From contig JAGOOP010000006.1 of NCBI GenBank assembly GCA_017992455.1, positions 1,707-65,706 on the forward strand: DNA of 64,000 nucleotides, read 5' to 3'. Below the pieces are notes generated by a model that searched no databases, was not told the DNA's origin, and worked only from the letters and a program-made list of their open reading frames with translations. The translations under genes were made by a program, and so were the position numbers. This DNA is from Candidatus Omnitrophota bacterium (GTDB lineage: Bacteria; Omnitrophota; Gorgyraeia; Gygaellales; Profunditerraquicolaceae). Below are positions 1,114 to 30,588 of this stretch, piece after piece (the stretch's first letter is position 1; each line of letters opens with the position of its first letter).

Positions 1114-1848
1114 ATGTTCCTGTTTATCCGCCTCCTCTTAGCGCATTTTATCGGCGACTTCCCCCTCCAGTTCGATTTTATATTCAAGCTGAAACTCAAA
1201 GGCCTGCGGGGAGTTATCCCCCACGCGCTGATCATATTCTTCTGCGGCATTGCGATGTCCTGGCCGTATCTTCATATGCCGCTCGTATGGGGATTCCTGG
1301 CCTTCATCGCCATAACGCACCTGATCCAGGACTCGCTAAAGATCAATTACGGAAAATCAAAACACGGCTTCTGGGCATATGTGATCGATCAGATAACGCA
1401 CGCCAGCCTCATCTCACTGATCTTCTTCACCGGACTGAAAGACCTGCCCGCGCCCGAGCCGTCGAACTGGTTCGTCAGGCTCTATTCCCACGACGGCCTT
1501 GTCATCTACCTTATCATCCTCATCGCCGCAACCTACAACGGCCACTTCCTCATCAGATGTTACAAAGACTCGTTCGTCAAGAACGCCAATCCCTGCGACG
1601 CGTATGAAAAATGGTTCGGGATGTTCGAGCGGCTCGCGATCGTATCGCTCTTCCTCACGCCTCTGCCGCTGTGGCTCGTTATCCTGCTGAGCCTTGCTTT
1701 GCGGCCGCTCACCTATGTGTCTCTCAAAGAACGACTGTCCCTGCACCGCTGCTTCGTCGCCGTCCCGGACATGGTCCTCAGCTGGATCATCGGCTTGAGC
1801 TGCGGCATCACGCTCTCTCTACTTCAATCCCGTTACCCGGTATATTGA
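1114..1848 (+). CDS. DUF3307-like multi-pass membrane protein
   Basis: 244 aa, hydrophobic throughout. The N-terminus LLLAHFIGDFPLQ resembles the DUF3307 signature as I remember it. The 3' end overlaps the convergent cyclase gene by 30 nt. Confidence 0.6.
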   Translation: MFLFIRLLLAHFIGDFPLQFDFIFKLKLKGLRGVIPHALIIFFCGIAMSWPYLHMPLVWGFLAFIAITHLIQDSLKINYGKSKHGFWAYVIDQITHASLISLIFFTGLKDLPAPEPSNWFVRLYSHDGLVIYLIILIAATYNGHFLIRCYKDSFVKNANPCDAYEKWFGMFERLAIVSLFLTPLPLWLVILLSLALRPLTYVSLKERLSLHRCFVAVPDMVLSWIIGLSCGITLSLLQSRYPVY

Positions 1849-18936: not shown

Positions 18937-19707
18937 TTACAGTTTTTTGCTTGCGAGCACTTCTGCTACCTTTTTGCCGTACGCGATCGAAGATTCGACC
19001 GATGTGCCGGTAACGAACGGCCAGTCATAGGCAACCGACGGATTCTCGCGGTTTGCTTTTTCTATTGCAATGCACTTGCCGTTCGGGCCGACTGCGTCGC
19101 GGACCAGATGTTCCAGCGGCCACAGGAAACCGGGAGTATGGACGTCCGTGCCTTTGTTATCGGCAGATGCGCCGTACAGGTCATAGGTAAAATCCCAATC
19201 CGGGCCGTAGAAATCCCATGACGCCGGATGCGCGGTGATCTTTTTGCCGTAGATAACGCTGTTCTTGGTCTTGTCGTCGCGGCAGAACACGAGCGCCGTG
19301 ACGGAATAACACAATGCCCCGACGAGTTTTCCCTGCGCGAGCGCGTCTTTGATCAGTTTGTGCAGATTGTAATTATTGCACATGTCGATCATGGCGCCGA
19401 GGCCGCCGGTCAGGACAAGCGCGTCATAGTCCTTCATGTTCGCGTCCTTGAACTTGATCGGCTTTGCCCACTCATTGCCGTCGGTCAATTCCTTGATCCT
19501 TTTGCATACGTCAGGCGGATTCGTGTGCGCGTTGATGATCGGGTCCACGAAATCCGGGTTCACGCTCACTGCCAGCGGCAGCGGCTTTTTGCCGAACCAG
19601 GTCGTCAGCGTCAATTGGTGCCCCGCGGCCTTGAGAATATCCCACGGCGCCTGCAATTCTTCTCCCCATACGCCGTAATTTGTGGCGCATACCAGTACTT
19701 TTGCCAT
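18937..19707 (-). CDS. Type 1 glutamine amidotransferase-like (DJ-1/PfpI superfamily) protein
   Basis: 256 aa. MAKVLVCATNYGVWGEELQAPWDILKAAGHQLTL, ALVLTGGLG and GALCYS (nucleophile elbow). SD AAGGAGG. Confidence 0.8.
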   Translation of the reverse strand: MAKVLVCATNYGVWGEELQAPWDILKAAGHQLTLTTWFGKKPLPLAVSVNPDFVDPIINAHTNPPDVCKRIKELTDGNEWAKPIKFKDANMKDYDALVLTGGLGAMIDMCNNYNLHKLIKDALAQGKLVGALCYSVTALVFCRDDKTKNSVIYGKKITAHPASWDFYGPDWDFTYDLYGASADNKGTDVHTPGFLWPLEHLVRDAVGPNGKCIAIEKANRENPSVAYDWPFVTGTSVESSIAYGKKVAEVLASKKL

Positions 19708-19762
19708 TCCCGCCTCCTTGGTTTCGCCGCCGCGCCCCTGTGACGGGCCGGGCGGACCGGTG

Positions 19763-20131
19763 TTATTTTTTCGCTTTTATCCGCTTTCCAGCATTGCCGC
19801 CCTTGGCCTTCCACGGAAAGTCCTTCTTGACCGGGGTGAAAAGATCGATCGCCTCGGTCTGCCCCACAGCGACGAACTCATGCCACACGTTCGGCGGGAT
19901 GAAATACGCGTCCCCCGCTTTCAACAGGGTCTTTTTTCCGCCGATGTTCATCCTGAATCCGCCCTTGATCACATAGCCGAACTGCTCCTGCTTATGCCTG
20001 TGCCATTTCACCACGCTTTTATTCGCCATATCCCAATGCTGGGCGTTCAACTTCCTGCCCTCGCCCAGATACTGGCGGATAACGCCTCCTCCCATGTCGA
20101 ACTTATCGAGCTTTTTCCTGAATACGTACAT
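19763..20131 (-). CDS. Cupin domain protein
   Basis: 122 aa. HRHKQEQFGYVIKG ... GDAYFIPPNVWHEF matches the two cupin motifs. SD GGAGGG. Confidence 0.8.
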   Translation of the reverse strand: MYVFRKKLDKFDMGGGVIRQYLGEGRKLNAQHWDMANKSVVKWHRHKQEQFGYVIKGGFRMNIGGKKTLLKAGDAYFIPPNVWHEFVAVGQTEAIDLFTPVKKDFPWKAKGGNAGKRIKAKK

Positions 20132-20143
20132 CGGCCCTCCTTC

Positions 20144-20434
20144 CTATTCCATGCCTTCGACGCAGAACACATCCGCACATGCCGCATGCAAACGCAGTTT
20201 CTTCGCTTCCCCGTAATCCGATGAATCCCACCAGTCCCGCGCCGCCTGCATATCCTTGAACTCAAGCACAATGATACGCCGGGGATCCGGATCGCCTTCC
20301 CACACCTCCGTCTTCCCGCCGCGCACGAGCGGCTTTCCGCCATGCGCAAGGATCGTCGGAGCGCCCGCCTTCATATACTTGGCGTATTGCTCCTGATCCT
20401 TGACATCGACATTGATGATGACATACGCAGACAT
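20144..20434 (-). CDS. DUF1330 domain protein
   Basis: 96 aa. MSAYVIINVDVKDQEQYAKY...ILAHGGKPLVRGG...IIVLEFKDMQAARDWWDSSDY. Confidence 0.8.
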   Translation of the reverse strand: MSAYVIINVDVKDQEQYAKYMKAGAPTILAHGGKPLVRGGKTEVWEGDPDPRRIIVLEFKDMQAARDWWDSSDYGEAKKLRLHAACADVFCVEGME

Positions 20435-20441
20435 TTCGCGA

Positions 20442-21011
20442 TTATCCTTTTGCCGCGATCAATTCAATGATCTTCTTCGCGAACACGTTACAATGGCCGC
20501 CGCTGCGGCCGGTGACCAGATCCCCGTCCACGACCACGTCCTCGTTGACATAAACCGCGCCCATGTTCTTCGCGTCGCCGAGCAGATTATTGTGCACAAC
20601 GACCTTACGTCCCTTTACCAGCTCGGGAGCCGGCGCAATAAGCCACATGCCGTGGCAGATAATGCCTTTAATGATATTCTTCTGGGCAAAGGCCCGCTTC
20701 ATGAATTCCGTCGCCGGCGGCAGTTTACTGACGTCTTCGGTATAGCGCAGGCGGTCCGCCACCATGCCCGCAGGCACGATGATCGCAGCAAAGCTCTTCA
20801 ACTGCGCATCGTCCATATCCTCAAAGCTCTCATGACAATCCATAGGGATCTGATATTCATGGCCCTTGAACGTGAGCGACGTGCAGCCCCACAGCCTCGT
20901 CATAAAATGCACGTCGATGCCTTCTTCGGCAAAACGGAACTTATAATACCATATCTCCGGTTCATAATAATCCCCTTCGAGCAAGATCCCGATCTTTTTG
21001 CCTTTCAACAT
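20442..21011 (-). CDS. DJ-1/PfpI family protein
   Basis: 189 aa. KKIGILLEGDYYEPEIWYYKFRFAEEGIDV and GIICHGMWL (Cys elbow). Its start overlaps the upstream gene end by 7 nt. Confidence 0.8.
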   Translation of the reverse strand: MLKGKKIGILLEGDYYEPEIWYYKFRFAEEGIDVHFMTRLWGCTSLTFKGHEYQIPMDCHESFEDMDDAQLKSFAAIIVPAGMVADRLRYTEDVSKLPPATEFMKRAFAQKNIIKGIICHGMWLIAPAPELVKGRKVVVHNNLLGDAKNMGAVYVNEDVVVDGDLVTGRSGGHCNVFAKKIIELIAAKG

Positions 21012-22576
21012 GGTTTTGCCCCTTTCTGGGCGCCTGTATACCGCACCGCCAGCATCGTAATGTCATCGGACTGCTGCGCGCCGCGGGCGAATACCGTCAC
21101 TTCCCGGCGCATTGCCTGGATCATGTCCTTGATACCGTTATCCTTAAGCGAAATGAGCTTTTCGCGAAGCCGCTCTTCGCCGAATTGTTTTCTATCCGGG
21201 TCCATGGCCTCGGTCACGCCGTCGGTATAGAGGAAGATCGTATCCCCGGGCTTCAAGCGCAGGCGCTCATTCGTGCATTTCAGGTCAGCCATGATACCCA
21301 CCACGAACCCGCACGCCATCTTGATGAAATTGAAACAGCCGGTCGCGTCGCACACCAGCGGCGGATTGTGGCCGCCGTTGGAGAACTCGATCTCGCCGGT
21401 GGCGATATCGAGGATCGCGCAGAAGACCGTGACGAACAGGCACGTCTGGTTGTCCTGGCACAGGATGCTGTTGACCACGGACAGGACCTCGTCCGTCGCC
21501 AAGCCCTGCTTCGCCTCGGTCTTGATGAGCGTCTTGCAGATGGCCATGAACAGCGCCGCGGGCACGCCCTTGCCTGAAACGTCGCCGATGACAAAGCACA
21601 ACCGCGACTCGTCGATGAAGAAGAAATCGTAAAAATCCCCGCCCACTTCTTTCGCCGGGTCCATCATGGCGAACAGTTCGAACTCCGCGCGTTCCGGGAA
21701 CACGCTCGGCAGCATGCTCGCCTGGATCTCCTGGGCGATGCGCAGTTCGCTTTCGATGCGCTCGCGCGCCGCGGTCTCGGCCTTGAGGTTCTCGATGAAC
21801 CGCTTGATGGAAAGCTGTATGAGGTCGATCGCCATGGCAGGATCTTTGCCGAAAAATTCGATCACCTCGTCCTTGCCCATCGTATAAACGTCCGTGTCTT
21901 CCTCGCACACGGCTGAAGCGGTCCGTTCCTTGAACGGCGAAAAGATGCCCATTTCCCCGAGCACATCGCCCTGCTTGACGACCTTGTCGATCTCAGGCAG
22001 ACGGATCGAGCCTTTGGCGATATAGAACATGCGGTCTGCCTTATCCCCTGCCTTGAACAGGCAATCCCCTTTTTTGTACGTCTCAAGCTTCATGAACGAG
22101 ATCGGCCAGCGGCACGAGTTGCCCGCTTTCGCAGCGGAGGCCTGGACCGCCGAATGCAGGTCCTTGGGGCTGCACGTATTGTATTTGACAAGGGTCAGGA
22201 TATTGCGGTCATTGTCCCGTTTATACGAAACATCGTCCATGATCTTCTTCATCATGAATACGCCCAGGCCGCCGATCTGGCGTTCTTCGATGGGCTTGTG
22301 GATATCGGGTTCGGGAAGGGATAAAGGATCAAAGGGGACGCCGGAATCGATGACCGTTATTTCCAGATATGAATTGCTGTTGAGATAGGTGATCTCGAGG
22401 TCTCCCGTGCCGCCGGGATACGCGTAATTGATCACGTTGACAAGCGCCTCTTCGCAGGCAAGCTGTATCTTGTCGATGTGCTCCTTGACAAAACCCTGGC
22501 GGGCTGCGCCTTCTCTGATAAAGGCGAACATGGTTTCGAGATTTTCCAGTTTGGCGGGCAGGACAAGGCGTTCCAT
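21005..22576 (-). CDS. Tri-domain fusion: RsbW-like GHKL kinase + cyclic-nucleotide-binding domain + PP2C/SpoIIE phosphatase
   Basis: 523 aa. Residues 1-135: CEEALVNVINYAY...GGLGVFMMKKIMDDV (HATPase_c_2-like). Residues ~165-260: FKAGDKADRMFYIAKG...GDVLGEMGIF...RTASAV (cNMP phosphate-binding cassette). C-terminus: AKEVGGDFYDF, GDVSGKGVPAALFMA, DGVTEA and SDDITMLAV (SpoIIE). Confidence 0.85.
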   Translation of the reverse strand: MERLVLPAKLENLETMFAFIREGAARQGFVKEHIDKIQLACEEALVNVINYAYPGGTGDLEITYLNSNSYLEITVIDSGVPFDPLSLPEPDIHKPIEERQIGGLGVFMMKKIMDDVSYKRDNDRNILTLVKYNTCSPKDLHSAVQASAAKAGNSCRWPISFMKLETYKKGDCLFKAGDKADRMFYIAKGSIRLPEIDKVVKQGDVLGEMGIFSPFKERTASAVCEEDTDVYTMGKDEVIEFFGKDPAMAIDLIQLSIKRFIENLKAETAARERIESELRIAQEIQASMLPSVFPERAEFELFAMMDPAKEVGGDFYDFFFIDESRLCFVIGDVSGKGVPAALFMAICKTLIKTEAKQGLATDEVLSVVNSILCQDNQTCLFVTVFCAILDIATGEIEFSNGGHNPPLVCDATGCFNFIKMACGFVVGIMADLKCTNERLRLKPGDTIFLYTDGVTEAMDPDRKQFGEERLREKLISLKDNGIKDMIQAMRREVTVFARGAQQSDDITMLAVRYTGAQKGAKPC

Positions 22577-22597
22577 GCGTTCTGTGGTCCCTGAATG

Positions 22598-22918
22598 CTA
22601 TTTGGTATAGGTATCTGCGACGGTCAGGAAATTATCGAGGCCGGACATCTTGATGACGTTGAGGATCGCGTCAGGCGCGCCGATGAGCAATACCTGCGCA
22701 TCCACGCCGATCTTCTGCTTGGCGAAGATGATGACGCGCAAGCCTGCGCTTGATATATATTCCAGTTCCTTCGCCATGAATACAAGTTCGGCGATCTTTT
22801 GTCCGATGAACTTCTTCAATTCCGCCTGGAGGCCTTCCGCGTTGGTCGCGTCGAGGCGGCCGCACAGCTCGACCTTCAGGATCTCATTGGCGCATGAACA
22901 GGTGTATTTCGACTCCAT
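22598..22918 (-). CDS. STAS domain anti-sigma-factor-antagonist-like protein
   Basis: 106 aa. ELEYISSAGLRVIIF retains the phosphorylatable Ser motif. SD AAGGAG. Confidence 0.85.
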   Translation of the reverse strand: MESKYTCSCANEILKVELCGRLDATNAEGLQAELKKFIGQKIAELVFMAKELEYISSAGLRVIIFAKQKIGVDAQVLLIGAPDAILNVIKMSGLDNFLTVADTYTK

Positions 22919-22950: not shown

Positions 22951-25086
22951 TTATTTTATGTCTTTGCCGGTCAAGATCACGACCGACCGGGGGCCTACTA
23001 AAAATTCGTTCTGGTTCTCAAGCTTTACCTCTTTGCCGGGCTGCCAGATATCGAACGGCGGCTCGGCGTCGGTATTGGCGAACACATACCACTCCATATG
23101 ATGGTTGAGCTTCGGCAGTTCGAACCCGTGCATGTCCCAGTGCATGTTCATCGCGACATATATGGAGTTGTCGTCGACCGTGCCGCCTTTGGCATGCATG
23201 CCGCAGAGCAGAAACGCCAGCATCCTGCTGTCAGGCGACCAATCCACGTTCCATGCCTTCTGGCCGTGCCAGGTGATATCCGCAAAACCCGACCCCATGT
23301 AATCGCGGTTCTTGAAATGGCCGCTCGAGCGCAGGACCGGATGCGCCCGTCTGAACGCGATCATCTGTTTGAAGAAATTGAACAGCTCTTTATTCGTATT
23401 GAGCAGCGACCAGTCGATCCATGATATCTCGTTATCCTGGCAGTAGGCGTTGTTATTGCCCCACTGGGTATTTGCCATCTCGTCGCCGGCAAGGATCATA
23501 GGCGTTCCCTGGCTTACCAGAAGCATCGCCACGGCGTTCTTCATCTGCTTCATGCGCAGCTTGTTGACCGCAGGGTCGGTCGATTCGCCTTCCCAGCCGC
23601 AGTTCCAGCTGTAATTGTCGTTGCCGCCGTCGGAATTGTTCTCGCCGTTGGCCTCGTTGTGCTTGCCGTTATACGAAACCATGTCGTAGAGCGTGAAGCC
23701 GTCGTGCGCGGTGATAAAATTGATCGACGCGGTCGCGCCTCTTCCCTCCCATGAATACAGGTCAGGAGAACCCTGCAGGCGCTGAGCCATGCCGCCCAGG
23801 CTGCCGGGCTCGCCCTTTAAGAATTTGCGCAGGTCATCGCGGTATTTGCCGTTCCACTCTGCCCAGCGGCCCCATGCGGGAAAGCTTCCGACCTGATACA
23901 GGCCGCCTGCGTCCCATGCCTCTGCGATCAGCTTGCATTTTCCCAGGATCGGGTCGAACGCGAGCGTTTCCAGAAGCGGCGGCGAGTGCATGGGAGCGCC
24001 GTTCTGGTCGCGTCCGAGGATCGACGCGAGATCGAACCGGAATCCGTCCACGTGATAATCCGCCGCCCAGTACCGCAGGCAGTCGAGGATCATGTTGCGC
24101 ACAATGGGATTATTGCAGTTGAGGGTATTGCCGCAGCCTGAAAAATTGAAGTAATACCCGTCGGGTGTGAGCAAATAATAGGTCTTATTATCAATGCCTT
24201 TATAGGAAATATACGGCCCCTTTTCATTCCCTTCAGCGGTATGGTTGAAGACCACGTCGAGGATCACCTCGATGCCGTTCTTATGAAGCTCCTTGATCAG
24301 GGTCTTGCATTCGTCAACCTGCATGCCGAATTTTCCCGTTGCGGCAAAACCCGCCTTGGGCGCGAAGAATCCGACGTTCGAATATCCCCAGTAATTCATG
24401 AGCATCTTTCCCGTTGCGGGAGAGATACGGGAATTCTCGAACTCGTCGAATTCGTGTATGGGCATGAGCTCCACGCAGGTAACACCGAGCTCCTTGAGAT
24501 ACGGTATTTTTTCCTTGATGCCAGCGAACGTGCCCGGATGCTTGACGCCCGACGACGGATGCTTGGTGAACCCGCGCACGTGCATCTCGTAAATGATCAG
24601 ATCCTCGATCGGGGTCTCGAGCGGATGGTCGCTCTCCCAGTCGAAATCGTCGAAACAGATGCGGGCGCGGTGCTGGTATATGTCGTTCCAGTCAGGGTTC
24701 TTGCCCCACACGTCCCTGCCGCCGATGGCCTTGGCATACGGGTCCATGAGGACCTTTGTCCTGTCGAACCGGTGGCCCTGCCGCGCGTCGAACGGGCCGT
24801 CCATATAAAAACCGTATTCGAGATTCTCGTAATCGAGGTCGAACACGATCATGGTAAAAACATTGCCGATGCGGAATTCGTCCTTGAAGGGGATGACGCA
24901 GAACGGCTGAGGCTCATGCTTGTTGAAAAGCGCCAGCTTGCACGATGAGGCTGAGCGGGAATAGATCGAGAAGTTCACCCCGCCGGGCACGATGCTCGCT
25001 CCGAACGGCAGCGGCTTTCCGACGCGCAGATGGTATTTGCCGTCCTCGCTCACATGGGTCGGATGCAGGTCAACGCGCAGCATCAT
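22951..25086 (-). CDS. glgX: Glycogen debranching enzyme GlgX (GH13)
   Basis: Start moved to ATG 25086 (MMLRVDLHP...), which forms an ATGA overlap with the upstream STAS stop. Motifs IEVILDVVFNHT, VDGFRFDLASILG, IAEAWD and NFITAHDGFTL. Confidence 0.9.
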   Translation of the reverse strand: MMLRVDLHPTHVSEDGKYHLRVGKPLPFGASIVPGGVNFSIYSRSASSCKLALFNKHEPQPFCVIPFKDEFRIGNVFTMIVFDLDYENLEYGFYMDGPFDARQGHRFDRTKVLMDPYAKAIGGRDVWGKNPDWNDIYQHRARICFDDFDWESDHPLETPIEDLIIYEMHVRGFTKHPSSGVKHPGTFAGIKEKIPYLKELGVTCVELMPIHEFDEFENSRISPATGKMLMNYWGYSNVGFFAPKAGFAATGKFGMQVDECKTLIKELHKNGIEVILDVVFNHTAEGNEKGPYISYKGIDNKTYYLLTPDGYYFNFSGCGNTLNCNNPIVRNMILDCLRYWAADYHVDGFRFDLASILGRDQNGAPMHSPPLLETLAFDPILGKCKLIAEAWDAGGLYQVGSFPAWGRWAEWNGKYRDDLRKFLKGEPGSLGGMAQRLQGSPDLYSWEGRGATASINFITAHDGFTLYDMVSYNGKHNEANGENNSDGGNDNYSWNCGWEGESTDPAVNKLRMKQMKNAVAMLLVSQGTPMILAGDEMANTQWGNNNAYCQDNEISWIDWSLLNTNKELFNFFKQMIAFRRAHPVLRSSGHFKNRDYMGSGFADITWHGQKAWNVDWSPDSRMLAFLLCGMHAKGGTVDDNSIYVAMNMHWDMHGFELPKLNHHMEWYVFANTDAEPPFDIWQPGKEVKLENQNEFLVGPRSVVILTGKDIK

Positions 25087-25430
25087 GCGCCCCCTTTGCC
25101 GACCGCCGCGACAGCGGCGTTGATGTCCGGGAAGGATTTGAAGAAATTGGAGAACCCGGTCATTTCCATGACGTCCTTGATCTCGTCGCATACGCCGCTC
25201 AAAGCAAGCGTCCCGCCTCTGCCCGATACCTGCTTTGCGGCCATGAGCAGAAGCCGCAGGCCTGCGCTTGAAACATACCCGCAGCCCTTCAGGTCGAGCA
25301 CGAGCGACTTCGTATCCGGCGCTAAAAGCGGCATGATCTTTTCCTGCGCTTCATTGACCGTATTTCCGTCAAGGTTACCCGATAAGGTGACGATGGCCAC
25401 ACCTTCCTGTTTGCTCATCTGGATGTCCAT
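25083..25430 (-). CDS. STAS domain anti-sigma-factor-antagonist-like protein
   Basis: 115 aa. LDLKGCGYVSSAGLRLLLMAAK. The stop overlaps the glgX start. Confidence 0.85.
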   Translation of the reverse strand: MDIQMSKQEGVAIVTLSGNLDGNTVNEAQEKIMPLLAPDTKSLVLDLKGCGYVSSAGLRLLLMAAKQVSGRGGTLALSGVCDEIKDVMEMTGFSNFFKSFPDINAAVAAVGKGGA

Positions 25431-25440: not shown

Positions 25441-27261
25441 TTACGCTGTCGGAACGATCCGTACCTTGATCTTCGGCCGGTAATTCACATTGGGGATGCT
25501 CACGGTCAGCTTCTGCGCATCGAAATTCTTCCACGGGTTGCCGTCCACCCACACGTCCGATATCCTGATGCTTCCCGGAGGCAGGATATCCGGCTCGACG
25601 CGCAGGACATCGCCGGGAAACCCCTGCGGCATGGGCTTGAAATAAAGGTCAAGCGGCTGTTTCGTATACAGAAGGTTCTGGTATATCTGGGCCAGATAAC
25701 ACAGCTCGATCGAGTGGTAACAGGCCATGGAATGGCTCCCCTTCAGCCGCTCGGTGCCCAGCAAAAACGGCAGGCCGTTGTTCAGCACGTTGAAATACAC
25801 GGCTCCGTCGTCGTGATCGAGATAGAACGCGTTATAGAACGCGGCCGACTCGCGGCCGAGCCGCAGGTATTCCGGATCTTTGAACACGCCGTGCATGATG
25901 TCATACGCGAGGATCCCCTGCTCCTGCTGCCACCACGCCTTGCGGTCATGCCACACATGGCGGTAACATTGTTCGCCCGGCGCAAGCTCCCGTTCCATAA
26001 CGTCATACCAGCCGCCGCGCTGAACGTCCATGCCCACGCCCGGCATCACCTTGGCGATCTTTTTGGAAAATTCCACGTATTTATCCTTGGGCACAAGGCT
26101 GTTGATGCGCGTCAGGTTCCATGCGATCTTGAGGTTATGGCCGATGACGCCGCGGTTCTGCTGCCATCCCCATGTCTTGTCATGGCTCCAGTCCTCATGG
26201 AATTTTTCCTGAACGAACGGGCTGTGTTCATAATCCTGGAAATGGTCCGTGATGCAGTCGGCGGTATATGCGAGGAAATCCTTATATTTGGGATCTCCGG
26301 TCGCCAGCCACAGGTTGATCAGATACGCGGGCGCGTGATCTCCGACCGAATTCCAGTTCTTGCGCGCGCGGTTGCGGCCGAGCGATTCAGCCCGGGGATC
26401 GAGTTTCAAGGGATCGATATGCGAGAAATACCCGCCCTTTTCCTTATCGAGGAAGAAACGGTCGAACAGGTCGATCGTCATCTTGATATCTTTCATGATC
26501 GCCGGGTCGCCGCTGATGCGATATGTCTGCGTCGGGCCTGCGAGCGCGTATATCTGCTCATATGCCGGGATCGCGTCATAATCGTCGCCGAATTCTGACG
26601 CGAACACTTTGTGTTCGCGGCCGTGCTTGACATCGATGCCGTGATACCAGTACACGACGTTCTCGTCCGTATCGTAGAACCGCATATGGTCGCGCAGATA
26701 CTGAACGCCTTTTTCAGCCGTATTGAGGAACCGGTCCTCGCCGGTCAGAAGGAACGCGGATGCCATTCCGTAGATCATGCGGGAGATCGTGTCCGTCTCC
26801 TGGCGGTGGTCTGTCTTGCGTTCGCCGGTCAGGGAGACATTCGTGCGGTAATTATTATAATCGATGGTGTCCGCAGAGCCGAATTCCGCCCTGATATAAA
26901 AATCAGCGATATTCGCTGCCTGCTTTACCCACCAGTCAGGCTCTTCAAAGCGGTATTTGCCCAGGCCTTCGCCCGGGAACACGAGCACTTTGGCGTCAAA
27001 ATCATACCGGTCTTTTTCAGGGTAGAAAATGCCCAGAACGAACAGATACTGGCCCGGGACCATGAGCGAATCGACCCTGCCCGTATAATCGCACCAGCCC
27101 TCACCCAGGTTGCGCGGCCCTTTTGCATACGCAGTGCCGGTCATGCGGCCTGAATATTCCCGGCCGTCTGACGTCTTCAATGAAAAAGTTTTTTTATCAC
27201 GGTCGTAACTCGTTACATAACCTGCAATTGTATCGGAGAACTCAAAACTTACCTTATTCAT
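25441..27261 (-). CDS. AGE (N-acylglucosamine 2-epimerase) superfamily epimerase/isomerase with ~130-aa N-terminal extra domain
   Basis: 606 aa. (alpha/alpha)6-barrel-type repeats: GGYFSHIDP, GDHAPAYLINLWLATGD, IGHNLKIAWNL, GGWYDVMERE, WWQQEQGILAY. Confidence 0.8.
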   Translation of the reverse strand: MNKVSFEFSDTIAGYVTSYDRDKKTFSLKTSDGREYSGRMTGTAYAKGPRNLGEGWCDYTGRVDSLMVPGQYLFVLGIFYPEKDRYDFDAKVLVFPGEGLGKYRFEEPDWWVKQAANIADFYIRAEFGSADTIDYNNYRTNVSLTGERKTDHRQETDTISRMIYGMASAFLLTGEDRFLNTAEKGVQYLRDHMRFYDTDENVVYWYHGIDVKHGREHKVFASEFGDDYDAIPAYEQIYALAGPTQTYRISGDPAIMKDIKMTIDLFDRFFLDKEKGGYFSHIDPLKLDPRAESLGRNRARKNWNSVGDHAPAYLINLWLATGDPKYKDFLAYTADCITDHFQDYEHSPFVQEKFHEDWSHDKTWGWQQNRGVIGHNLKIAWNLTRINSLVPKDKYVEFSKKIAKVMPGVGMDVQRGGWYDVMERELAPGEQCYRHVWHDRKAWWQQEQGILAYDIMHGVFKDPEYLRLGRESAAFYNAFYLDHDDGAVYFNVLNNGLPFLLGTERLKGSHSMACYHSIELCYLAQIYQNLLYTKQPLDLYFKPMPQGFPGDVLRVEPDILPPGSIRISDVWVDGNPWKNFDAQKLTVSIPNVNYRPKIKVRIVPTA

Positions 27262-27321
27262 TTTCGTCCCCTTGGGTTATACAACCGACGAGCGGATTGA
27301 ATATCGTCTATTGCAGCCAAT

Positions 27322-27349
27322 AAAAAAGCCAAGGCGCGAATGCCTTAGC
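27322..27349 (-). terminator. Intrinsic terminator (or attenuator) between the STAS gene and the AGE operon
   Basis: Minus-strand RNA gcuaaggc-auucgc-gccuuggc has an 8-bp stem with one G-U and is followed by UUUUUUAUU. It lies ~135 nt after the STAS stop (27487) and ~60 nt before the AGE ATG (27261). Confidence 0.55.
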
Positions 27350-27446
27350 GTGAGATCATCATTCTTCGGATATACGTTCTCTGAAAACGATTCATACGGC
27401 CTCATCCGGATAATGTGTTTTTCCCTAACCTTCAGACAACGAAGGT

Positions 27447-27455
27447 ATTATAACA
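27447..27455 (-). promoter_or_regulatory. Candidate extended -10 promoter (TGTTATAAT)
   Basis: The minus-strand sequence reads aaaTGtTATAATacc in an AT-rich tract. A possible -35 TTGTAT sits 16 nt upstream (27469-27474). Confidence 0.35.
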
Positions 27456-27486
27456 TTTCTTTGAAATAATACAAGCAAATATTGCT

Positions 27487-27867
27487 TCAGCCCGAGGTAT
27501 CTTTGGCGCGCTTCTGGATCTCCATAAAATAGCGGTCCGCCTCTTCCATGCTCTCGAAAACCTTTACATCAGGCAGCGCCTTAACGATCTCGAACACCTT
27601 GGCGATCTGGACAGGGATATTCGCCATCACAAAGCTCGCGCCTTTTTCTTCAAACATCTTTTTCGACATCAGTATGGCGCTGATACCCATTGAACTGACA
27701 TATTCCAGCTCCGCAAGGTCCAGGATCGCGCCGGTGACCGCTTTGGCGATCAACTGCCTGCTTTTATCGAGCAGCTGCGTATGGGTCTCGGTGTCAAGAT
27801 GTCCTTTCAACTTGATGATGACGGTGTTCTCATCCTCTTTTCTGAATACACTCAGCTCTAAAGCCAT
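27487..27867 (-). CDS. STAS domain anti-sigma-factor-antagonist-like protein
   Basis: Start moved to ATG 27867 (MALELSVFRKEDE...; SD AGGAGG). LAELEYVSSMGISAIL. Confidence 0.85.
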   Translation of the reverse strand: MALELSVFRKEDENTVIIKLKGHLDTETHTQLLDKSRQLIAKAVTGAILDLAELEYVSSMGISAILMSKKMFEEKGASFVMANIPVQIAKVFEIVKALPDVKVFESMEEADRYFMEIQKRAKDTSG

Positions 27868-27892
27868 GGACCCTCCTTGTATGATAGGGGAA

Positions 27893-29761
27893 CTATCCCG
27901 GATATTCGAACACGACCGCGGTAATGTCGTCGAACTGCCTGCCTTTACCCTCGAACGCAGCATGGCGCTGTTCAAGATGCGCAAGCGCTTCGTCGATGGG
28001 CATGGCACGCACGCCCGTTACGCTGTTTTTGAGGTTCTCGATCCCGAATTCCCTGCCCGTTGTTGACCGCGCCTCGGTCCATCCGTCCGTATACATGAAC
28101 ATCCTCATATCCCGCGTAAAAGACTGCCGGACTGTCGTAAATCTGATGTTCTCCATAAGGCCCAGAGGCGGGCCGGAGGCGGGCAGGACCTCGATAACTC
28201 CTTCGGCTGTTTTATTCGTTACCAGCGCCGCCGGATGTCCGGCGCAGGCGCCCTCCCAGTACCCGTCCTTATGATGCACGACGACATACTGCCCGGTAAC
28301 GAACCTGCCGTTCAAAAGGGGCTTGAGCTGATTGTTCAACACATACAATACCTCAGCCGGATCGCGCGACATGCGGCCGGCAACCCGCAAAAGCGATATC
28401 GTCTGCGCCATGATAAGGGAGGCGCTCACCCCTTTGCCCGATACATCGCCGATGAACACGCCGAACGCGGCCTCGTCGAGCGCGATGATATCGTACAGGT
28501 CCCCGCCCACGAACCGGGCCGCTTTCAGATACGCGCGGATGTCCACGGGACCGATCCGGCGCACGTCCGGCGGCAGGAAACTGCGCTGGATGCTCGCGGC
28601 GATCTCGAGCTCCTTTTCAAGAAGCCGCCTTTTCTGGACCTCTTCGAAAAATTTGGCAAGCAGCACGACCGCATACACGATCCCGATGCAGGCCAGGGGC
28701 AGAAAAACGTCGATGAATATGCCCTGATATGCAAAGAGCGTCCATGCGGCAAGAACATATACGCCCGCGACCGCAATGCATATTCCGAACGCCGCGACCG
28801 GAGCCGCCGCGGCGCAGACTGCGAACGCCGTTGCCGCAACCGCGATACCGATAAGCGCGCGGCCGACAGCGCCGGCGCGCTTGACAAACGCATTGCGCAG
28901 GATACTGTCGCAGACGCTTGCCTGCGTTCCGACCATCGGATAGACCGGATCGATCGGATTTGCCCGGAAATCCGAGGTTCCCGCAGCGGTCAATCCCACA
29001 AAGCATATGGCATCCTTTAATACGCTCAGATCGAGCCACGAAGACGCGCCTTTTTGCATCGCAGCCGCAGCCCGCAGCACGTCAAGATAGGAATAATGCG
29101 AAAATGTCCTGGTCCAGGGGCCCGGATAATTCACCCATATCGCGCCCGACGCTTCGGCGGCTTTGTTCAAAACATCTTCCACCGGCACGCCCAGATATTG
29201 CGAAGCGGCGAGCACGCCGAGCGACGGGAACAGCTCGCTGCCGTGCCGGATCATTGCCGGCACCCTGCGCACTTTCCCGTCGCGGTCGACGATGATATTG
29301 ATATGGCCGGCGCCTGCCGCATGTTCCCGCAATGCCGGCGCAACGCCCGCCAGCATCTCGCTTGAAACCGCAGGCGGTCGATACTGCATGCGCTCCAGCT
29401 GGAACGCCATGGGAAGAAAAACCCTGCCTGAACGCCGCAGGACTTCGGATAATACCGGGTCTGAGCCGGATGGCTCGGCAAGAAGGATATCGAAAACGAT
29501 CATGCGGCATCCTGCCTGCGTCAGCGCGTCGATCAATGCGGCATGGAAATCCCTGGACAAAGGCCATCGGCCAAGGGCCTTGATGGTGTCATCCGCTATC
29601 TCGATCACTGCGATGCCAGGATGCGTGGCCTGGACAGGCCGCGTCCTCATCAGCCAGTCATACGCGGCCATTTCCTGATGATCGAAAAAACCCGAGAACA
29701 CCGCCCCATTGATGCACAGGACCGGAACGAGGACCGCCCAATACCGGAATACCCGTTTCAT
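27893..29761 (-). CDS. CHASE2 sensor domain-containing PP2C/SpoIIE phosphatase
   Basis: 622 aa. N-terminal TM, then CHASE2-like region (IAVIEIADDTIKALGRWPLSRDFHA), then ~3 TMs. SpoIIE part: ARFVGGDLYDI, GDVSGKGVSASLIMA, TDGWTEA, FDDITAVV. ATGA overlap with the upstream RsbW gene. Confidence 0.85.
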   Translation of the reverse strand: MKRVFRYWAVLVPVLCINGAVFSGFFDHQEMAAYDWLMRTRPVQATHPGIAVIEIADDTIKALGRWPLSRDFHAALIDALTQAGCRMIVFDILLAEPSGSDPVLSEVLRRSGRVFLPMAFQLERMQYRPPAVSSEMLAGVAPALREHAAGAGHINIIVDRDGKVRRVPAMIRHGSELFPSLGVLAASQYLGVPVEDVLNKAAEASGAIWVNYPGPWTRTFSHYSYLDVLRAAAAMQKGASSWLDLSVLKDAICFVGLTAAGTSDFRANPIDPVYPMVGTQASVCDSILRNAFVKRAGAVGRALIGIAVAATAFAVCAAAAPVAAFGICIAVAGVYVLAAWTLFAYQGIFIDVFLPLACIGIVYAVVLLAKFFEEVQKRRLLEKELEIAASIQRSFLPPDVRRIGPVDIRAYLKAARFVGGDLYDIIALDEAAFGVFIGDVSGKGVSASLIMAQTISLLRVAGRMSRDPAEVLYVLNNQLKPLLNGRFVTGQYVVVHHKDGYWEGACAGHPAALVTNKTAEGVIEVLPASGPPLGLMENIRFTTVRQSFTRDMRMFMYTDGWTEARSTTGREFGIENLKNSVTGVRAMPIDEALAHLEQRHAAFEGKGRQFDDITAVVFEYPG

Positions 29762-30189
29762 GAAAGGCTCTGAATGGTTTTCGACATCCTGACGCCGCTG
29801 CCGTTGTCGTAGAACTCGACTTTATCCATAAGCTTGCGCATGAGATACACGCCGCGGCCCGAGGGCTGATGCGCCTTTTCTCCCCGTGTCGGGTCGGGAA
29901 GGACGCGGAAATCGAACCCGTCGCCTTCGTCATGGATGTCCATGGTGATCTGCCGGGGGCCCGCGTCGATATGCACGGTGACAAAACAACGCTCATCGAG
30001 CCGGTTTCCGTGGCGCATGGAATTGACCATCGCTTCCTCGAGCGCGAGCTTGATCTTGAATACATCGTCCTTGGAGCCGATCAACGGCAGAAGTTCCTGC
30101 GCGACGCGGTCAAGGAACGGGTTGACGGCCTTCAGGTCGGTCTTGAGCTTCTCGTGCACGCGGTATATGGATGCCATATGGTCCGTCAT
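29758..30189 (-). CDS. RsbW/SpoIIAB-type anti-sigma regulatory factor (Ser/Thr kinase, GHKL ATPase)
   Basis: 143 aa. LALEEAMVNSMRHGN, DEGDGFD and GRGVYLMRKLMDKVEF. ATGA overlaps at both ends. Confidence 0.85.
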   Translation of the reverse strand: MTDHMASIYRVHEKLKTDLKAVNPFLDRVAQELLPLIGSKDDVFKIKLALEEAMVNSMRHGNRLDERCFVTVHIDAGPRQITMDIHDEGDGFDFRVLPDPTRGEKAHQPSGRGVYLMRKLMDKVEFYDNGSGVRMSKTIQSLS

Positions 30190-30578
30190 GCGAAACGTTC
30201 CGGCGGTTTAATATTGCCCTTCTGGACCCCGTCGAGGAATTTGTCAAGGTATTCGTCCGCTTCGGTCAGGCTTGCGAACATCTGGGGGCTCAATATCTTC
30301 ATGGTATCGAATACCTGCTTGACCTGCGGCTGCATGTTCACCAGCGCGATCGTTCCCGCGCGCTCTTCGACCGCCAGCTTGACGCGGAAAAGCGCGCTCA
30401 GTCCCATTGAGCTGATATACGAAACCTGCCCCATCTCGAATACGACGGCCTTTGCTTTCGGCACGATATCTTTCAGCCGCTCTTCGAACAGCTGATACGT
30501 TTCCGTATTGATCTCGCCTTTGGGCGCTGCGACAAAAACCCCGGATTCCTTCTCAATGATCGAAACATCCAGAGCCAT
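30186..30578 (-). CDS. STAS domain anti-sigma-factor-antagonist-like protein
   Basis: Start moved to ATG 30578 (MALDVSIIEKE...; SD AAGGAGG). MGQVSYISSMGLSALF. Confidence 0.85.
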   Translation of the reverse strand: MALDVSIIEKESGVFVAAPKGEINTETYQLFEERLKDIVPKAKAVVFEMGQVSYISSMGLSALFRVKLAVEERAGTIALVNMQPQVKQVFDTMKILSPQMFASLTEADEYLDKFLDGVQKGNIKPPERFA

Positions 30579-30588
30579 TGCGGCCTCC

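What the first reader, a model, noticed from the sequence alone, without database searches (positions are those of the whole stretch)
21005..22918. Kinase - cNMP-binding - phosphatase fused in one polypeptide next to its STAS substrate
21005-22576 encodes three domains in one protein. An RsbW-type GHKL kinase domain is at the N-terminus. A canonical cyclic-nucleotide-binding cassette (GEMG...RTASA) is in the middle. A SpoIIE/PP2C phosphatase is at the C-terminus.

The two antagonistic activities of a partner switch therefore sit in one protein with a cNMP sensor between them, directly downstream of a STAS gene (22598-22918). Fusions of PP2C with RsbW-like kinases are known (HsbR-type, with a receiver input). 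A cNMP-gated version in this domain order is not something I recognise.

It offers a direct link to the CHASE2 cyclase at 1819-4056.
Basis: partly seen in the sequence, partly recalled or inferred. Interest (0 to 1): 0.7.

Follow-up and report, generated by a model that had tools for sequence, protein, structure and literature searches.

The report
cNMP-sensing kinase–phosphatase fusion in icfG-type cluster
The three-domain protein is real and looks catalytically complete, but it is a lineage-specific gene fusion inside a widely conserved glycogen-linked "partner-switch" operon already known from cyanobacteria, so it is a new and uncharacterised variant of a known kind, not a new system.

Summary
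**Observation: confirmed.** Window 21005-22576 (minus strand) encodes a 523-aa protein. It has an RsbW-type Ser kinase domain (1-131), a 24-aa unconserved tether, a cyclic-nucleotide-binding (CNB) domain, a 49-residue conserved helix, and a SpoIIE/RsbU-type PP2C. All ATP-, cNMP- and metal-binding residues are invariant in 71 relatives. A STAS gene with the phosphorylatable Ser lies 21 nt upstream.

**Interpretation: partly supported.**
- The kinase–sensor–PP2C order is already known from SypE, which has a REC sensor.
- The exact protein is deposited as NCBI MBP6919927.1 (Candidatus Omnitrophota). Dozens of MAG proteins share the architecture.
- Sister genomes carry the kinase and CNB-PP2C as two adjacent genes. 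Other proteins place the same kinase C-terminally.
- CNB-PP2C is therefore the functional unit, and the kinase position looks incidental.

The gene sits in an operon: AGE-like enzyme, STAS, GlgX, STAS, kinase/phosphatase. This block is conserved in Cyanobacteriota, Bacteroidota and Gemmatimonadota and matches the Synechocystis icfG cluster. Only the phosphatase's sensor varies.

**Cyclase link.** The CHASE2 cyclase is a predicted adenylate cyclase, but it is 17 kb away and not syntenic.

**Likely mechanism.** cAMP gates the phosphatase through the helix against a constitutive kinase, setting STAS phosphorylation to control carbon/glycogen metabolism.

**Verdict:** new variant of a known kind; no experimental study found.

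The parts
21005..22576 (-). Fusion gene (523 aa): RsbW-type kinase, tether, CNB, helix, SpoIIE-type PP2C. Identical to NCBI MBP6919927.1.
   Evidence: ORF; Pfam; exact database match.
22181..22576 (-). Kinase domain (about residues 1-132): GHKL Ser kinase of the RsbW/SpoIIAB type.
   Evidence: HATPase_c_2 E=2.3e-28. N-box E43/N47, G1 D77xG79 and G2 G102-G103-x-G105 align to RsbW 6m36 and SpoIIAB 1til and are invariant in 71/71 relatives.
22112..22180 (-). Unconserved tether (residues 133-155), equivalent to the intergenic spacer of split relatives.
   Evidence: AF2 pLDDT below 50 for residues 135-154. Over residues 132-155: 0/24 invariant columns; length 14-44 aa across relatives. Corresponds to the 62-nt spacer in L008.
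21842..22111 (-). Cyclic-nucleotide-binding domain (residues 156-245) with phosphate-binding cassette G207-E208-M-G210 ... R218-T219-A220-S221-A222.
   Evidence: PF00027 E=1.6e-14. Aligns to CRP/PKG cassettes. G207, E208, G210 and R218 are invariant; T219 is kept in 66/71. Beta-barrel in the AF2 model.
21695..21841 (-). Long helix (residues 246-294) running from the CNB C-helix into the PP2C alpha-0. Proposed signal-transmitting linker.
   Evidence: AF2 shows a single helix at 246-288. This is the most conserved segment: 16/49 invariant, majority fraction 0.82.
21008..21694 (-). SpoIIE/RsbU-type PP2C phosphatase domain (residues 295-523).
   Evidence: PF07228 E=2e-50. D314, D332, G335, D452, G453, D504 and D505 are invariant. 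Structural neighbours are RssB, Rv1364c, SiaA and SpoIIE.
22598..22918 (-). STAS1 (106 aa), the probable direct substrate. Phosphorylatable Ser57 lies in 'YISSAGL'.
   Evidence: Pfam/NCBIfam. Aligns to SpoIIAA 'FMDSSGL'. Y54, S56, S57 and G59 are invariant in 11 STAS proteins. Orthologous to the second STAS of the cluster in other phyla, 37-69% identity.
22951..25086 (-). GlgX/isoamylase-type glycogen debranching enzyme (about 711 aa). Its start overlaps the STAS2 stop (ATGA).
   Evidence: CBM_48 + Alpha-amylase + ISOA1-3_C. Junction sequence. 70-83% identical to the cluster GlgX in other phyla.
25083..25430 (-). STAS2 (115 aa), the second candidate substrate, with 'YVSSAGL'.
   Evidence: STAS E=2.9e-20, TIGR00377 90.7 bits. 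Orthologous to the first STAS of the cluster in other phyla, 40-56% identity.
25441..27261 (-). AGE-family (GlcNAc 2-epimerase-like) enzyme, 606 aa; first gene of the operon.
   Evidence: PF07221. 67-87% identical across many phyla. Counterpart of Slr1855 (PMC8670252).
27262..27486 (-). Operon leader: extended -10-like element 'AATGtTATAAT', then a hairpin plus T-run (27349-27328), then a Shine-Dalgarno sequence and the AGE start.
   Evidence: No Rfam match.
18937..21011 (-). Operon tail: DJ-1/PfpI (20442-21011, start overlaps the fusion gene's stop), DUF1330 (20144-20434), cupin (19763-20131), ThiJ-like (18937-19707).
   Evidence: Pfam. Junction. Same genes downstream in L001, L007 and L008.
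27487..30578 (-). Second, separate partner-switch module: STAS4 (30186-30578), free RsbW-like kinase (29758-30189), CHASE2-SpoIIE (27893-29761), STAS3 (27487-27867).
   Evidence: Absent from the syntenic locus L001.
32350..34260 (-). dCache-HAMP-SpoIIE phosphatase: a third sensor phosphatase near the cluster.
1819..4056 (-). CHASE2 class III cyclase, predicted adenylate cyclase. A possible but unlinked source of ligand.
   Evidence: Pfam. Lys ('DKFVGD') and Thr ('DYTVIGD') at the substrate-specifying positions, as in the adenylate cyclase CyaB 3r5g; Glu/Gly in the guanylate cyclase Cya2 2w01.

Best explanation
The protein is the combined kinase and phosphatase of an icfG-type partner-switching operon: AGE-like enzyme, STAS2, GlgX, STAS1, kinase/phosphatase. 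It arose when a small RsbW-type Ser kinase gene fused to the adjacent gene for a cNMP-sensing SpoIIE/RsbU-type phosphatase.

**Proposed mechanism**
1. The N-terminal kinase phosphorylates the conserved Ser of STAS1 (Ser57), and possibly of STAS2, more or less constitutively.
2. The CNB domain binds a cyclic nucleotide, most likely cAMP.
3. Through its C-helix, which continues as one long conserved helix into the PP2C alpha-0/switch region, it changes phosphatase activity. [quoted passage not shown]
4. The ligand therefore sets the phospho-state of the STAS proteins.
5. The STAS proteins pass the signal to carbon/glycogen metabolism, through a sigma/anti-sigma partner or by binding enzymes directly.

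**Shown here:** domain content, catalytic and ligand-binding residues, gene fusion, and synteny.

**Inferred:** substrate, ligand identity, which activity is gated, the direction of gating, and the output.
For: **Domains and residues**
- Domains above Pfam thresholds.
- Kinase N/G1/G2 boxes, phosphate-binding cassette and PP2C metal Asp residues align to solved homologues. They are invariant in 71 relatives down to about 47% identity.
- STAS1 carries the SpoIIAA-Ser58-equivalent Ser, invariant in 11 STAS proteins.

**Operon packing**
- 21-nt gap from STAS1 to the fusion gene; fusion stop overlaps the DJ-1 start; STAS2 stop overlaps the GlgX start.

**Fusion of adjacent genes**
- L008 and L007 have the same operon with a separate 133-139-aa kinase and a CNB-SpoIIE gene.
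- Residues 1-131 and 156-515 match those two proteins; the tether matches the spacer.

**CNB-PP2C is the conserved unit and the kinase position is free**
- CNB-PP2C-KIN, REC-CNB-PP2C, HAMP-CNB-PP2C and dCache-HAMP-CNB-PP2C all exist with the cassette intact.
- The C-terminal kinases of P0121/P0122 are 38-44% identical to this N-terminal one.
- Tether: 0/24 invariant, low pLDDT. Helix 246-294: 33% invariant.

**Linker mechanism precedent**
- Coiled-coil linker control of RsbU-type PPMs (PMC12143880).
- RssB (REC-linker-PP2C) is the top structural neighbour.

**icfG-type cluster**
- The same gene order occurs in Cyanobacteriota (L089) and Bacteroidota (L090). In Gemmatimonadota (L091) it is partial: no first STAS is called and the phosphatase is on the opposite strand.
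- Position-specific STAS orthology, and 57% PP2C identity despite a different sensor.
- Literature layout of slr1855-slr1861 (PMC8670252; PMC12329169).

**Ligand**
- A predicted adenylate cyclase is encoded in the window.
Against: - There is no biochemical evidence of any kind.
- Ligand identity is not determined by sequence. The R-T-A cassette is compatible with cAMP or cGMP.
- The only cyclase seen is 17 kb away and not syntenic.
- The direction of regulation is unknown.
- In SypE, the closest characterised analogue, the central sensor toggles both activities, so the kinase here might also be regulated.
- The AF2 inter-domain arrangement is unreliable (pTM 0.53). Dimerisation was not modelled, and the heptad signal in the linker is modest (10 of 16 a/d positions hydrophobic).
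- Fused and split forms are interspersed in the tree. Some 'split' calls could be frameshift errors in MAGs.
- The Acidobacteriota-type fused clade sits in a different context (PrsW and an ECF sigma factor, no GlgX). The glycogen link is therefore not a property of the fusion itself.
- Direct comparison with the Synechocystis proteins was not possible. A Cyanobacteriota MAG and the literature were used instead.
Confidence: 0.6

Rival explanations
1. SypE-like reciprocal toggle. The central CNB domain controls both flanking activities, so that cNMP binding switches the protein from net kinase to net phosphatase or the reverse. This is essentially the first reader's view.
For: SypE has the same order (kinase, REC, PP2C), and REC phosphorylation is thought to switch it between kinase and phosphatase modes (PMC3610818). 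The fusion is maintained in 71 clusters and in one deep, entirely fused clade, which suggests the covalent link has some value.
Against: - The kinase is a separate polypeptide in syntenic sister operons. In L007 another gene even lies in between.
- The kinase is C-terminal in P0121/P0122.
- The kinase-CNB tether is unconserved, variable in length (14-44 aa) and low-confidence.
Confidence: 0.2
2. Anti-sigma factor reading. The main role of the kinase domain is to sequester a sigma factor, as RsbW, Slr1861 and the kinase domains of HsbR/CrsR do. STAS1 would act as the antagonist, and the output would be transcriptional.
For: Slr1861 of the icfG operon is an anti-SigC factor as well as a STAS kinase (PMC12329169). 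The fused kinase domains of HsbR and CrsR bind RpoS (PMC6482189). In the Acidobacteriota-type loci an ECF sigma factor gene is conserved two genes downstream of the fusion gene.
Against: No sigma factor gene was found among the scanned ORFs of the 64-kb window or in the Omnitrophota syntenic loci. Sigma binding cannot be assessed from sequence. SypE/SypA acts downstream of transcription.
Confidence: 0.25
3. The CNB domain is a structural or dimerisation module, or it binds a non-cNMP ligand as some CRP/FNR-family domains do. The protein would then not be cyclic-nucleotide regulated.
For: CNB sits between HAMP and PP2C in some relatives, a position where it could merely relay signals. The residue after R-T varies among architectures. 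No cyclase is genomically linked.
Against: The G-E-x-G ... R-T signature is essentially invariant across 71 family members and nearly all 19 other CNB-PP2C proteins examined. Non-cNMP CRP/FNR-type domains usually lack these cassette residues; this last point rests on my own knowledge.
Confidence: 0.12
4. The fusion is an assembly or frameshift artefact that joins two genes.
For: A single indel near the kinase stop codon could convert split to fused, because the spacer is open in the downstream frame.
Against: 71 distinct 90%-identity clusters of at least 495 aa come from independent assemblies and sources. One relative was read on 19 contigs. The identical protein is deposited independently. 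There is an entirely fused deep clade.
Confidence: 0.02

Closest known systems
SypE / SypA of Vibrio fischeri (PMC3610818)
   Same: One polypeptide with an N-terminal RsbW-like Ser kinase, a central regulatory domain and a C-terminal PP2C phosphatase. It acts on a single-domain STAS protein at a conserved Ser. The output concerns polysaccharide and is post-transcriptional.
   Different: The central domain is a receiver (REC) fed by a phosphorelay, not a CNB domain. The locus is the syp biofilm locus, not a glycogen/AGE operon. Sequence orthology was not tested here. In the window protein the kinase tether looks passive.
icfG gene cluster of Synechocystis PCC 6803: Slr1855 AGE, Slr1856 STAS, Slr1857 GlgX1, Slr1859 STAS, Slr1860 IcfG PP2C, Slr1861 kinase/anti-SigC (PMC8670252, PMC12329169; Shi et al. 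1999, cited therein)
   Same: Same gene content and order: AGE-like enzyme, STAS, isoamylase, STAS, then a PP2C phosphatase and an RsbW-like kinase. A Cyanobacteriota MAG (L089) shows the same block, with 68-70% identical enzymes and position-specific STAS orthologues.
   Different: In cyanobacteria the kinase and phosphatase are separate proteins. By locus-tag numbering, phosphatase precedes kinase in Synechocystis. The phosphatase sensor differs (FHA-PAS in L089). No CNB domain has been reported there. The window protein fuses the two and uses a CNB sensor.
HsbR/CrsR (REC-PP2C-kinase; PMC6482189) and Rv1364c (PAS-PP2C-kinase-STAS; PDB 3ke6)
   Same: Phosphatase and RsbW-like kinase in one chain acting on a STAS partner. 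The PP2C fold is among the top structural matches.
   Different: The domain order is sensor-PP2C-kinase. That order is also the common one in genomes: 12 of 80 scanned loci against 1 with the window's order. The sensors are REC or PAS.
RsbU/RsbP/RssB-type PPM phosphatases with N-terminal sensors and coiled-coil linkers (PMC12143880)
   Same: A sensor domain joined to the PPM domain by a long helix that packs on the alpha-0/alpha-1/alpha-2 switch. RssB is the best structural neighbour.
   Different: The published sensors are the RsbU N-domain, PAS, REC, GAF and HAMP. CNB is not discussed, and those proteins carry no fused kinase.

Membership tests
RsbW/SpoIIAB-type GHKL Ser kinase (HATPase_c_2) | Profile match above the curated threshold | tested here: met
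   PF13581 at 99.2 bits against a 27.4 cut-off, residues 6-131.
RsbW/SpoIIAB-type GHKL Ser kinase (HATPase_c_2) | ATP/Mg-binding N-box (E...N), G1 (DxG) and G2 (GxxG) motifs | tested here: met
   E43/N47, D77-S-G79 and G102-G103-L-G105 align to RsbW 6m36 and SpoIIAB 1til. Invariant in 71/71.
RsbW/SpoIIAB-type GHKL Ser kinase (HATPase_c_2) | Phosphorylates a STAS Ser; binds a sigma factor | not testable with these tools
   Needs biochemistry. The adjacent STAS has the acceptor Ser.
Cyclic-nucleotide-binding domain (PF00027) | Profile match above threshold and a beta-barrel fold | tested here: met
   54.1 bits against a 27.5 cut-off. The AF2 barrel spans 163-234 with block pLDDT mostly 73-92.
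Cyclic-nucleotide-binding domain (PF00027) | Phosphate-binding cassette G-E-x-G ... R-[ST]-A | tested here: met
   G207, E208, G210, R218, T219, A220. Aligned to CRP/PKG cassettes. Conserved.
Cyclic-nucleotide-binding domain (PF00027) | Binds cAMP or cGMP; specificity | not testable with these tools
   Only indirect evidence: the cyclase in the window is a predicted adenylate cyclase.
SpoIIE/RsbU-type PPM (PP2C) phosphatase | Profile match and conserved metal-binding Asp/Gly motifs | tested here: met
   171.8 bits against a 25 cut-off. D314, D332, G335, D452, G453, D504 and D505 are invariant. Folds like RssB, SiaA and SpoIIE.
SpoIIE/RsbU-type PPM (PP2C) phosphatase | Helical linker from the sensor into the alpha-0/switch region | tested here: met
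   Single helix at 246-288. It is the most conserved segment. Dimeric coiled-coil formation was not modelled.
SypE-type bifunctional regulator | N-terminal kinase, central regulatory domain, C-terminal PP2C, STAS substrate encoded nearby | tested here: met
SypE-type bifunctional regulator | The central domain is a receiver (REC) | tested here: not met
   The central domain is CNB, with no Response_reg hit. The protein works like SypE but is not a member.
HsbR/CrsR/Rv1364c-type fusions | Order sensor, PP2C, kinase | tested here: not met
   The order here is kinase, CNB, PP2C. The permuted CNB-PP2C-KIN form exists in other proteins, P0121 and P0122.
icfG-type gene cluster | Gene content and order: AGE-like, STAS, isoamylase/GlgX, STAS, PP2C plus RsbW-like kinase | tested here: met
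   Window; L001, L007, L008; Cyanobacteriota L089 and Bacteroidota L090; partial in Gemmatimonadota L091. Literature layout.
icfG-type gene cluster | Two distinct, position-specific STAS orthologue groups | tested here: met
   STAS2 against the first STAS is 40-56% identical; STAS1 against the second STAS is 37-69%; cross pairs are 28-37%.
icfG-type gene cluster | Kinase and phosphatase as separate proteins | tested here: not met
   Fused in the window and in L001. Separate in L007, L008, L089 and L090.
icfG-type gene cluster | Direct sequence orthology to Synechocystis Slr1855-Slr1861; the kinase phosphorylates both STAS proteins and the phosphatase acts on one | not tested
The biochemistry is known only from the literature.

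The most novel reading that the evidence does not exclude
A bacterial counterpart of the classic cAMP-to-glycogenolysis cascade. cAMP sets the Ser-phosphorylation state of two small STAS proteins. Those proteins bind and regulate the enzymes they are interleaved with and translationally coupled to (the GlgX debranching enzyme and the AGE-family enzyme), with no sigma factor involved. The cross-phylum conserved AGE-STAS-GlgX-STAS-kinase-phosphatase cassette would then be a portable post-translational controller of glycogen catabolism. Its sensor input would be swapped between lineages: CNB, dCache-HAMP, FHA-PAS.
Probability: 0.15. Interest if true: 0.75.

Novelty: new variant of a known kind. 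Interest (0 to 1): 0.45.

Why it matters
- Partner switches are usually described as sigma-factor controls whose sensor phosphatases carry PAS, REC, GAF or HAMP inputs. A cyclic-nucleotide input to an RsbU-type phosphatase has, as far as I could find, not been studied. It would link second-messenger signalling to Ser-phosphorylation switches in bacteria.
- The icfG cluster has been known since the 1990s, but how it connects to carbon metabolism is unresolved. Here the whole block appears nearly intact in Omnitrophota and Bacteroidota as well as Cyanobacteriota, and partly in Gemmatimonadota. Only the sensor is exchanged, and each STAS gene is packed against an enzyme gene.
- That points to a concrete experiment: test phospho-dependent binding of STAS to GlgX and the AGE enzyme, including in the tractable organism Synechocystis.
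- The fused, soluble, single-ligand version in this window would be a convenient in vitro model.

Tried and rejected
1. **Assembly artefact.** Rejected: many independent clusters and contigs.
2. **Direct genomic link to the CHASE2 cyclase.** Rejected: it is 17 kb away with unrelated genes between, and no cyclase lies in the flanks of L001-L008. Only a pathway-level link (predicted adenylate cyclase) remains.
3. **Genome-wide census from the genome-contig scan.** The 80 loci are mostly generic SpoIIE proteins, so the 1/80 figure for KIN-CNB-PP2C is not a frequency estimate.
4. **Reading Shi et al. 1999 (PMC93959).** Not held. The cluster layout was taken from two later papers instead.
5. **A strict regular expression for the phosphate-binding cassette in other architectures.** It gave false negatives and was replaced by an HMM alignment.
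6. **Heptad scan of the linker.** Only a modest coiled-coil signal, 10/16 hydrophobic a/d positions. Not used as evidence.
7. **Rfam search of the operon leader.** No match. Single-sequence folds show the terminator hairpin but no shared aptamer.
8. **AF2 inter-domain geometry.** Not interpreted, because pTM is 0.53.
9. **T219 as a cGMP marker.** Considered and not adopted. From my own knowledge, cAMP-binding GlxR and Mycobacterium CRP also carry R-T. The cAMP-bound GlxR structure 4cyd is among the closest solved CNB hits.

Full report

Yes. The window has a 523-aa ORF at 21005..22576 on the minus strand. Pfam finds three domains, all well above their gathering scores:

| Domain | Residues | E-value |
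|---|---|---|
| HATPase_c_2 | 6-131 | 2.3e-28 |
| cNMP_binding | 165-243 | 1.6e-14 |
| SpoIIE | 323-513 | 2e-50 |

NCBIfam gives partial matches to RsbW, CRP and RssB/SiaA/SpoIIE in the same order. A 106-aa STAS gene (22598..22918, minus strand) ends 21 nt before the ATG. The ORF at 1819-4056 is a CHASE2 class III cyclase.

**2. Are the domains competent?**

- *Kinase.* E43/N47 (N-box), D77-x-G79 (G1) and G102-G103-x-G105 (G2) align with RsbW (6m36) and SpoIIAB (1til, 1l0o, 1th8).
- *CNB.* G207-E208-M-G210 ... R218-T219-A220 aligns with the phosphate-binding cassettes of CRP-family and PKG structures.
- *PP2C.* The GGDFYD, GDVSGKG, TDG and DDIT motifs are present.
- *Conservation.* In 71 three-domain relatives down to about 47% identity, every one of these residues is invariant. 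The exception is T219, kept in 66/71.
- *STAS.* STAS1's 'YISSAGL' aligns to SpoIIAA 'FMDSSGL'. This puts Ser57 at the position of the phosphorylated Ser58; I counted that numbering from the B. subtilis sequence recalled from memory. Y54, S56, S57 and G59 are invariant in 11 STAS proteins from this window and related loci.

**3. What the protein is: a fusion of two neighbouring genes**

The exact sequence is NCBI MBP6919927.1, 'SpoIIE family protein phosphatase [Candidatus Omnitrophica bacterium]'. Of the 120 best 90%-identity clusters, 71 are at least 495 aa; all rows of that length in the listing carry the three Pfam domains. Another 45 are 340-400 aa, almost all CNB-SpoIIE proteins. JGI already names the long form 'serine phosphatase RsbU / anti-sigma regulatory factor'.

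In two syntenic Omnitrophota loci the kinase is a separate gene:
- L008: 133 aa, with a 62-nt gap before the CNB-SpoIIE gene.
- L007: 139 aa, with an additional 5TMR_LYT-SpoIIE gene in between.

How the window protein maps onto L008:
- Residues 1-131 match the L008 kinase (56% identity).
- Residues 156-515 match the L008 CNB-SpoIIE (69% identity).
- Residues 132-155 correspond to the spacer. That spacer is open in the downstream frame, so one indel can interconvert the two forms.

A neighbour-joining tree of the shared region has a deep, entirely fused clade. It also has an Omnitrophota clade where fused and split forms are interspersed.

**4. Which part senses for which**

A search of 1.84 billion 50%-identity representatives found 15,261 proteins at E ≤ 1e-30, mostly through the SpoIIE domain. 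Among the best 150, only two matched end to end as kinase-CNB-PP2C: P0022 and P0065.

The other top hits carry the same CNB-PP2C unit in different frames:
- CNB-PP2C-kinase (P0121, P0122)
- REC-CNB-PP2C
- HAMP-CNB-PP2C
- CHASE5-HAMP-CNB-PP2C
- dCache-HAMP-CNB-PP2C
- CNB-CNB-PP2C

The G-E-x-G ... R-T signature is kept in almost all of them. The C-terminal kinases of P0121 and P0122 are 38-44% identical to this N-terminal kinase. For comparison, the N-terminal kinase of the Acidobacteriota-type fused form is 43% identical.

Segment conservation within the family points the same way:

| Segment | Invariant columns | Other |
|---|---|---|
| Tether 132-155 | 0/24 | length 14-44 aa |
| Helix 246-294 | 16/49 | most conserved segment |

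AlphaFold2 (61-sequence alignment, mean pLDDT 84) gives pLDDT below 50 for residues 135-154. It also gives one continuous helix at 246-288 from the CNB C-helix into the PP2C. pTM is only 0.53, so I do not interpret the domain packing.

The best structural neighbours are RssB (REC-linker-PP2C), Rv1364c, SiaA and SpoIIE for the C-terminal half. RsbW matches the N-terminal domain, and CRP and GlxR match the middle. Published work shows that RsbU-type phosphatases are switched by dimeric coiled-coil linkers coming from PAS, REC, GAF or HAMP sensors (PMC12143880).

My reading is that CNB gates the phosphatase and the kinase is a passenger, joined by a passive tether. The SypE-like toggle remains a rival.

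**5. The surroundings: an icfG-type operon**

On the minus strand the genes run as follows.

| Gene | Coordinates |
|---|---|
| AGE-family enzyme | 25441-27261 |
| STAS2 | 25083-25430 |
| GlgX/isoamylase | 22951-25086 |
| STAS1 | 22598-22918 |
| Fusion gene | 21005-22576 |
| DJ-1/PfpI | 20442-21011 |
| DUF1330 | 20144-20434 |
| Cupin | 19763-20131 |
| ThiJ-like | 18937-19707 |

- *Packing.* From the ORF coordinates, the gaps between successive genes are 10, -4, 32, 21, -7, 7, 12 and 55 nt. The junctions were checked by sequence (for the domains).
- *Omnitrophota.* The block is conserved in L001, L007 and L008.
- *AGE enzyme.* It is 67-87% identical across many phyla.
- *Other phyla.* Neighbourhoods of its homologues show the same order in a Cyanobacteriota MAG (L089, phosphatase sensor FHA-PAS) and Bacteroidota (L090, dCache-HAMP). 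Gemmatimonadota (L091, HAMP) is partial: no first STAS is called and the phosphatase is on the opposite strand.
- *STAS orthology.* It is position-specific.
- *PP2C domain.* The PP2C domain is 57% identical to that of the Bacteroidota dCache-HAMP-SpoIIE.

The published Synechocystis operon slr1852-1862 has the same content:
- Slr1855, N-acetylglucosamine 2-epimerase family
- Slr1856, STAS
- GlgX1 (slr1857)
- Slr1859, STAS
- IcfG, PP2C (slr1860)
- Slr1861, kinase

In that system Slr1861 phosphorylates both STAS proteins and is also an anti-SigC factor. IcfG dephosphorylates Slr1856 only. Mutants have carbon and glucose phenotypes (PMC8670252; PMC12329169).

The window protein is therefore the IcfG-plus-Slr1861 equivalent of an Omnitrophota icfG-type operon, with a CNB sensor.

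The more distant fused clade has a different setting. In that clade (P0119 is named Candidatus Aminicenantes and the related P0104 Acidobacteriota; L003, L005, L006) the order is STAS, fusion gene, a divergently oriented PrsW-type protease, then an ECF sigma factor. The STAS pairing therefore belongs to the fusion. The glycogen link belongs to the operon.

**6. Other signalling genes nearby**

Immediately upstream, and separated by a terminator-like hairpin, lies a second module: STAS4, a free RsbW-like kinase, CHASE2-SpoIIE and STAS3 (27487-30578). A dCache-HAMP-SpoIIE lies at 32350-34260. The second module is absent from L001. No sigma factor gene was found among the ORFs I scanned.

**7. 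The cyclase link**

The CHASE2 cyclase has Lys ('DKFVGD') and Thr ('DYTVIGD') at the substrate-specifying positions, as in the adenylate cyclase CyaB (3r5g). The guanylate cyclase Cya2 (2w01) has Glu and Gly there. That these positions specify substrate is established knowledge of class III cyclases.

cAMP is therefore the more likely ligand. But the cyclase is 17 kb away and is not conserved next to the operon, so the link is not 'direct'.

**8. Comparison with known systems, and novelty**

- It works like SypE (kinase, REC, PP2C, with STAS substrate SypA), but the defining REC is replaced. It is not a member.
- It is not HsbR/CrsR/Rv1364c-type, where the order is sensor-PP2C-kinase. That order was the common fusion in the genome scan: 12 loci against 1. 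The scan was not a census.
- It is a member of the icfG-type cluster by gene content and order, but with kinase and phosphatase fused.
- Literature searches found cNMP_binding listed only in PP2C domain surveys. No paper combined a cyclic-nucleotide-binding domain, RsbU and cAMP. The searchable library is incomplete.

Verdict: new variant of a known kind, visible in databases but uncharacterised.

**9. Most likely mechanism**

The shown and inferred steps are listed under Best explanation. The main open points are:
- ligand identity and the direction of gating;
- whether the kinase is also regulated;
- whether the output is a sigma/anti-sigma partner, as with Slr1861, or direct enzyme regulation.

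There is precedent for the second kind of output. SypA acts downstream of transcription. The Anabaena HenR/All4160 switch directly regulates an exopolysaccharide enzyme (bioRxiv 10.64898/2026.04.08.717354).

**10. Scores**

Interest is 0.45. The finding is correct and tidy, and the cross-phylum icfG-type cassette with swappable sensors is a useful insight. However, sensor swapping on RsbU-type phosphatases and kinase-phosphatase fusions are both established themes.

Noticed in passing
window 27262-27486 (minus strand); L001 5050-5340; L008 2427-2752; L007 1016-1390: There is a conserved leader upstream of the AGE-like gene. It has an invariant extended -10-like 'AATGnTATAAT', about 150 nt later a hairpin plus T-run (window 27349-27328), and then about 60 nt to the start codon. 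The hairpin sequences differ between loci, but all keep a stem followed by a T-run. In L001 and L008 the upstream gene is divergent (Rrf2), so the hairpin is not that gene's terminator. This is a candidate transcription attenuator or riboswitch-like leader of the icfG-type operon. There is no Rfam match at E ≤ 1.
   Followed up: partly
window 27487-30578 (minus strand): There is a complete second partner-switch module with 4-nt overlapping gene junctions: STAS4, a free 143-aa RsbW-like kinase, CHASE2-SpoIIE (622 aa) and STAS3. No sigma factor gene accompanies it. It is absent from the otherwise syntenic locus L001. Its STAS proteins are only 16-21% identical to STAS1.
   Followed up: partly
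window 25441-27261 and 22951-25086; L089, L090, L091: The AGE-family enzyme and GlgX of this operon are unusually conserved across phyla (68-77% and 70-83% identity to Cyanobacteriota and Bacteroidota copies). The regulatory genes between them are much less conserved. This suggests strong constraint on the block, or its horizontal spread. The substrate of the AGE-like enzyme is unknown.
   Followed up: partly
window 18937-21011; L001 11565-13579 and 15623-16021; L089 7565-8815; L090 17334-18563: DJ-1/PfpI, ThiJ-like, cupin and DUF1330 genes travel with the icfG-type block in several phyla. Glyoxalase genes do so in relatives. This hints at a link between glycogen or sugar catabolism and detoxification of reactive carbonyls such as methylglyoxal.
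   Followed up: no
L003 11584-14171; L005 9571-12195; L006 9617-11376: In the Acidobacteriota/Aminicenantes-type clade, the STAS and fusion-gene pair is always followed by a divergently oriented PrsW-type protease and an ECF sigma factor gene, then large proteins with no Pfam hits. This may be a different output for the same fused regulator.
   Followed up: no
window 1819-7783, 27893-31629 and 36607-38616: FecR-domain genes accompany the CHASE2 sensors. The CHASE2 cyclase (1819-4056) has a beta-barrel porin-like gene, a FecR gene and a POTRA/ShlB gene nearby. The CHASE2-SpoIIE has a FecR gene at 30589-31629. A further FecR protein is at 36607-38616. Ankyrin-repeat genes also recur near the cluster (window 31698-32522; L001, L089, L090).
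   Followed up: no
window 42674-43522 (minus strand): IS200-like Y1 transposase (PF01797), the only mobile-element gene seen in the window.
   Followed up: no
whole window: Nearly all genes are on the minus strand. GC skew is negative in every 2-kb bin, and the cumulative skew falls steadily to -2.3. This fits a single replication arm with co-oriented genes.
   Followed up: no
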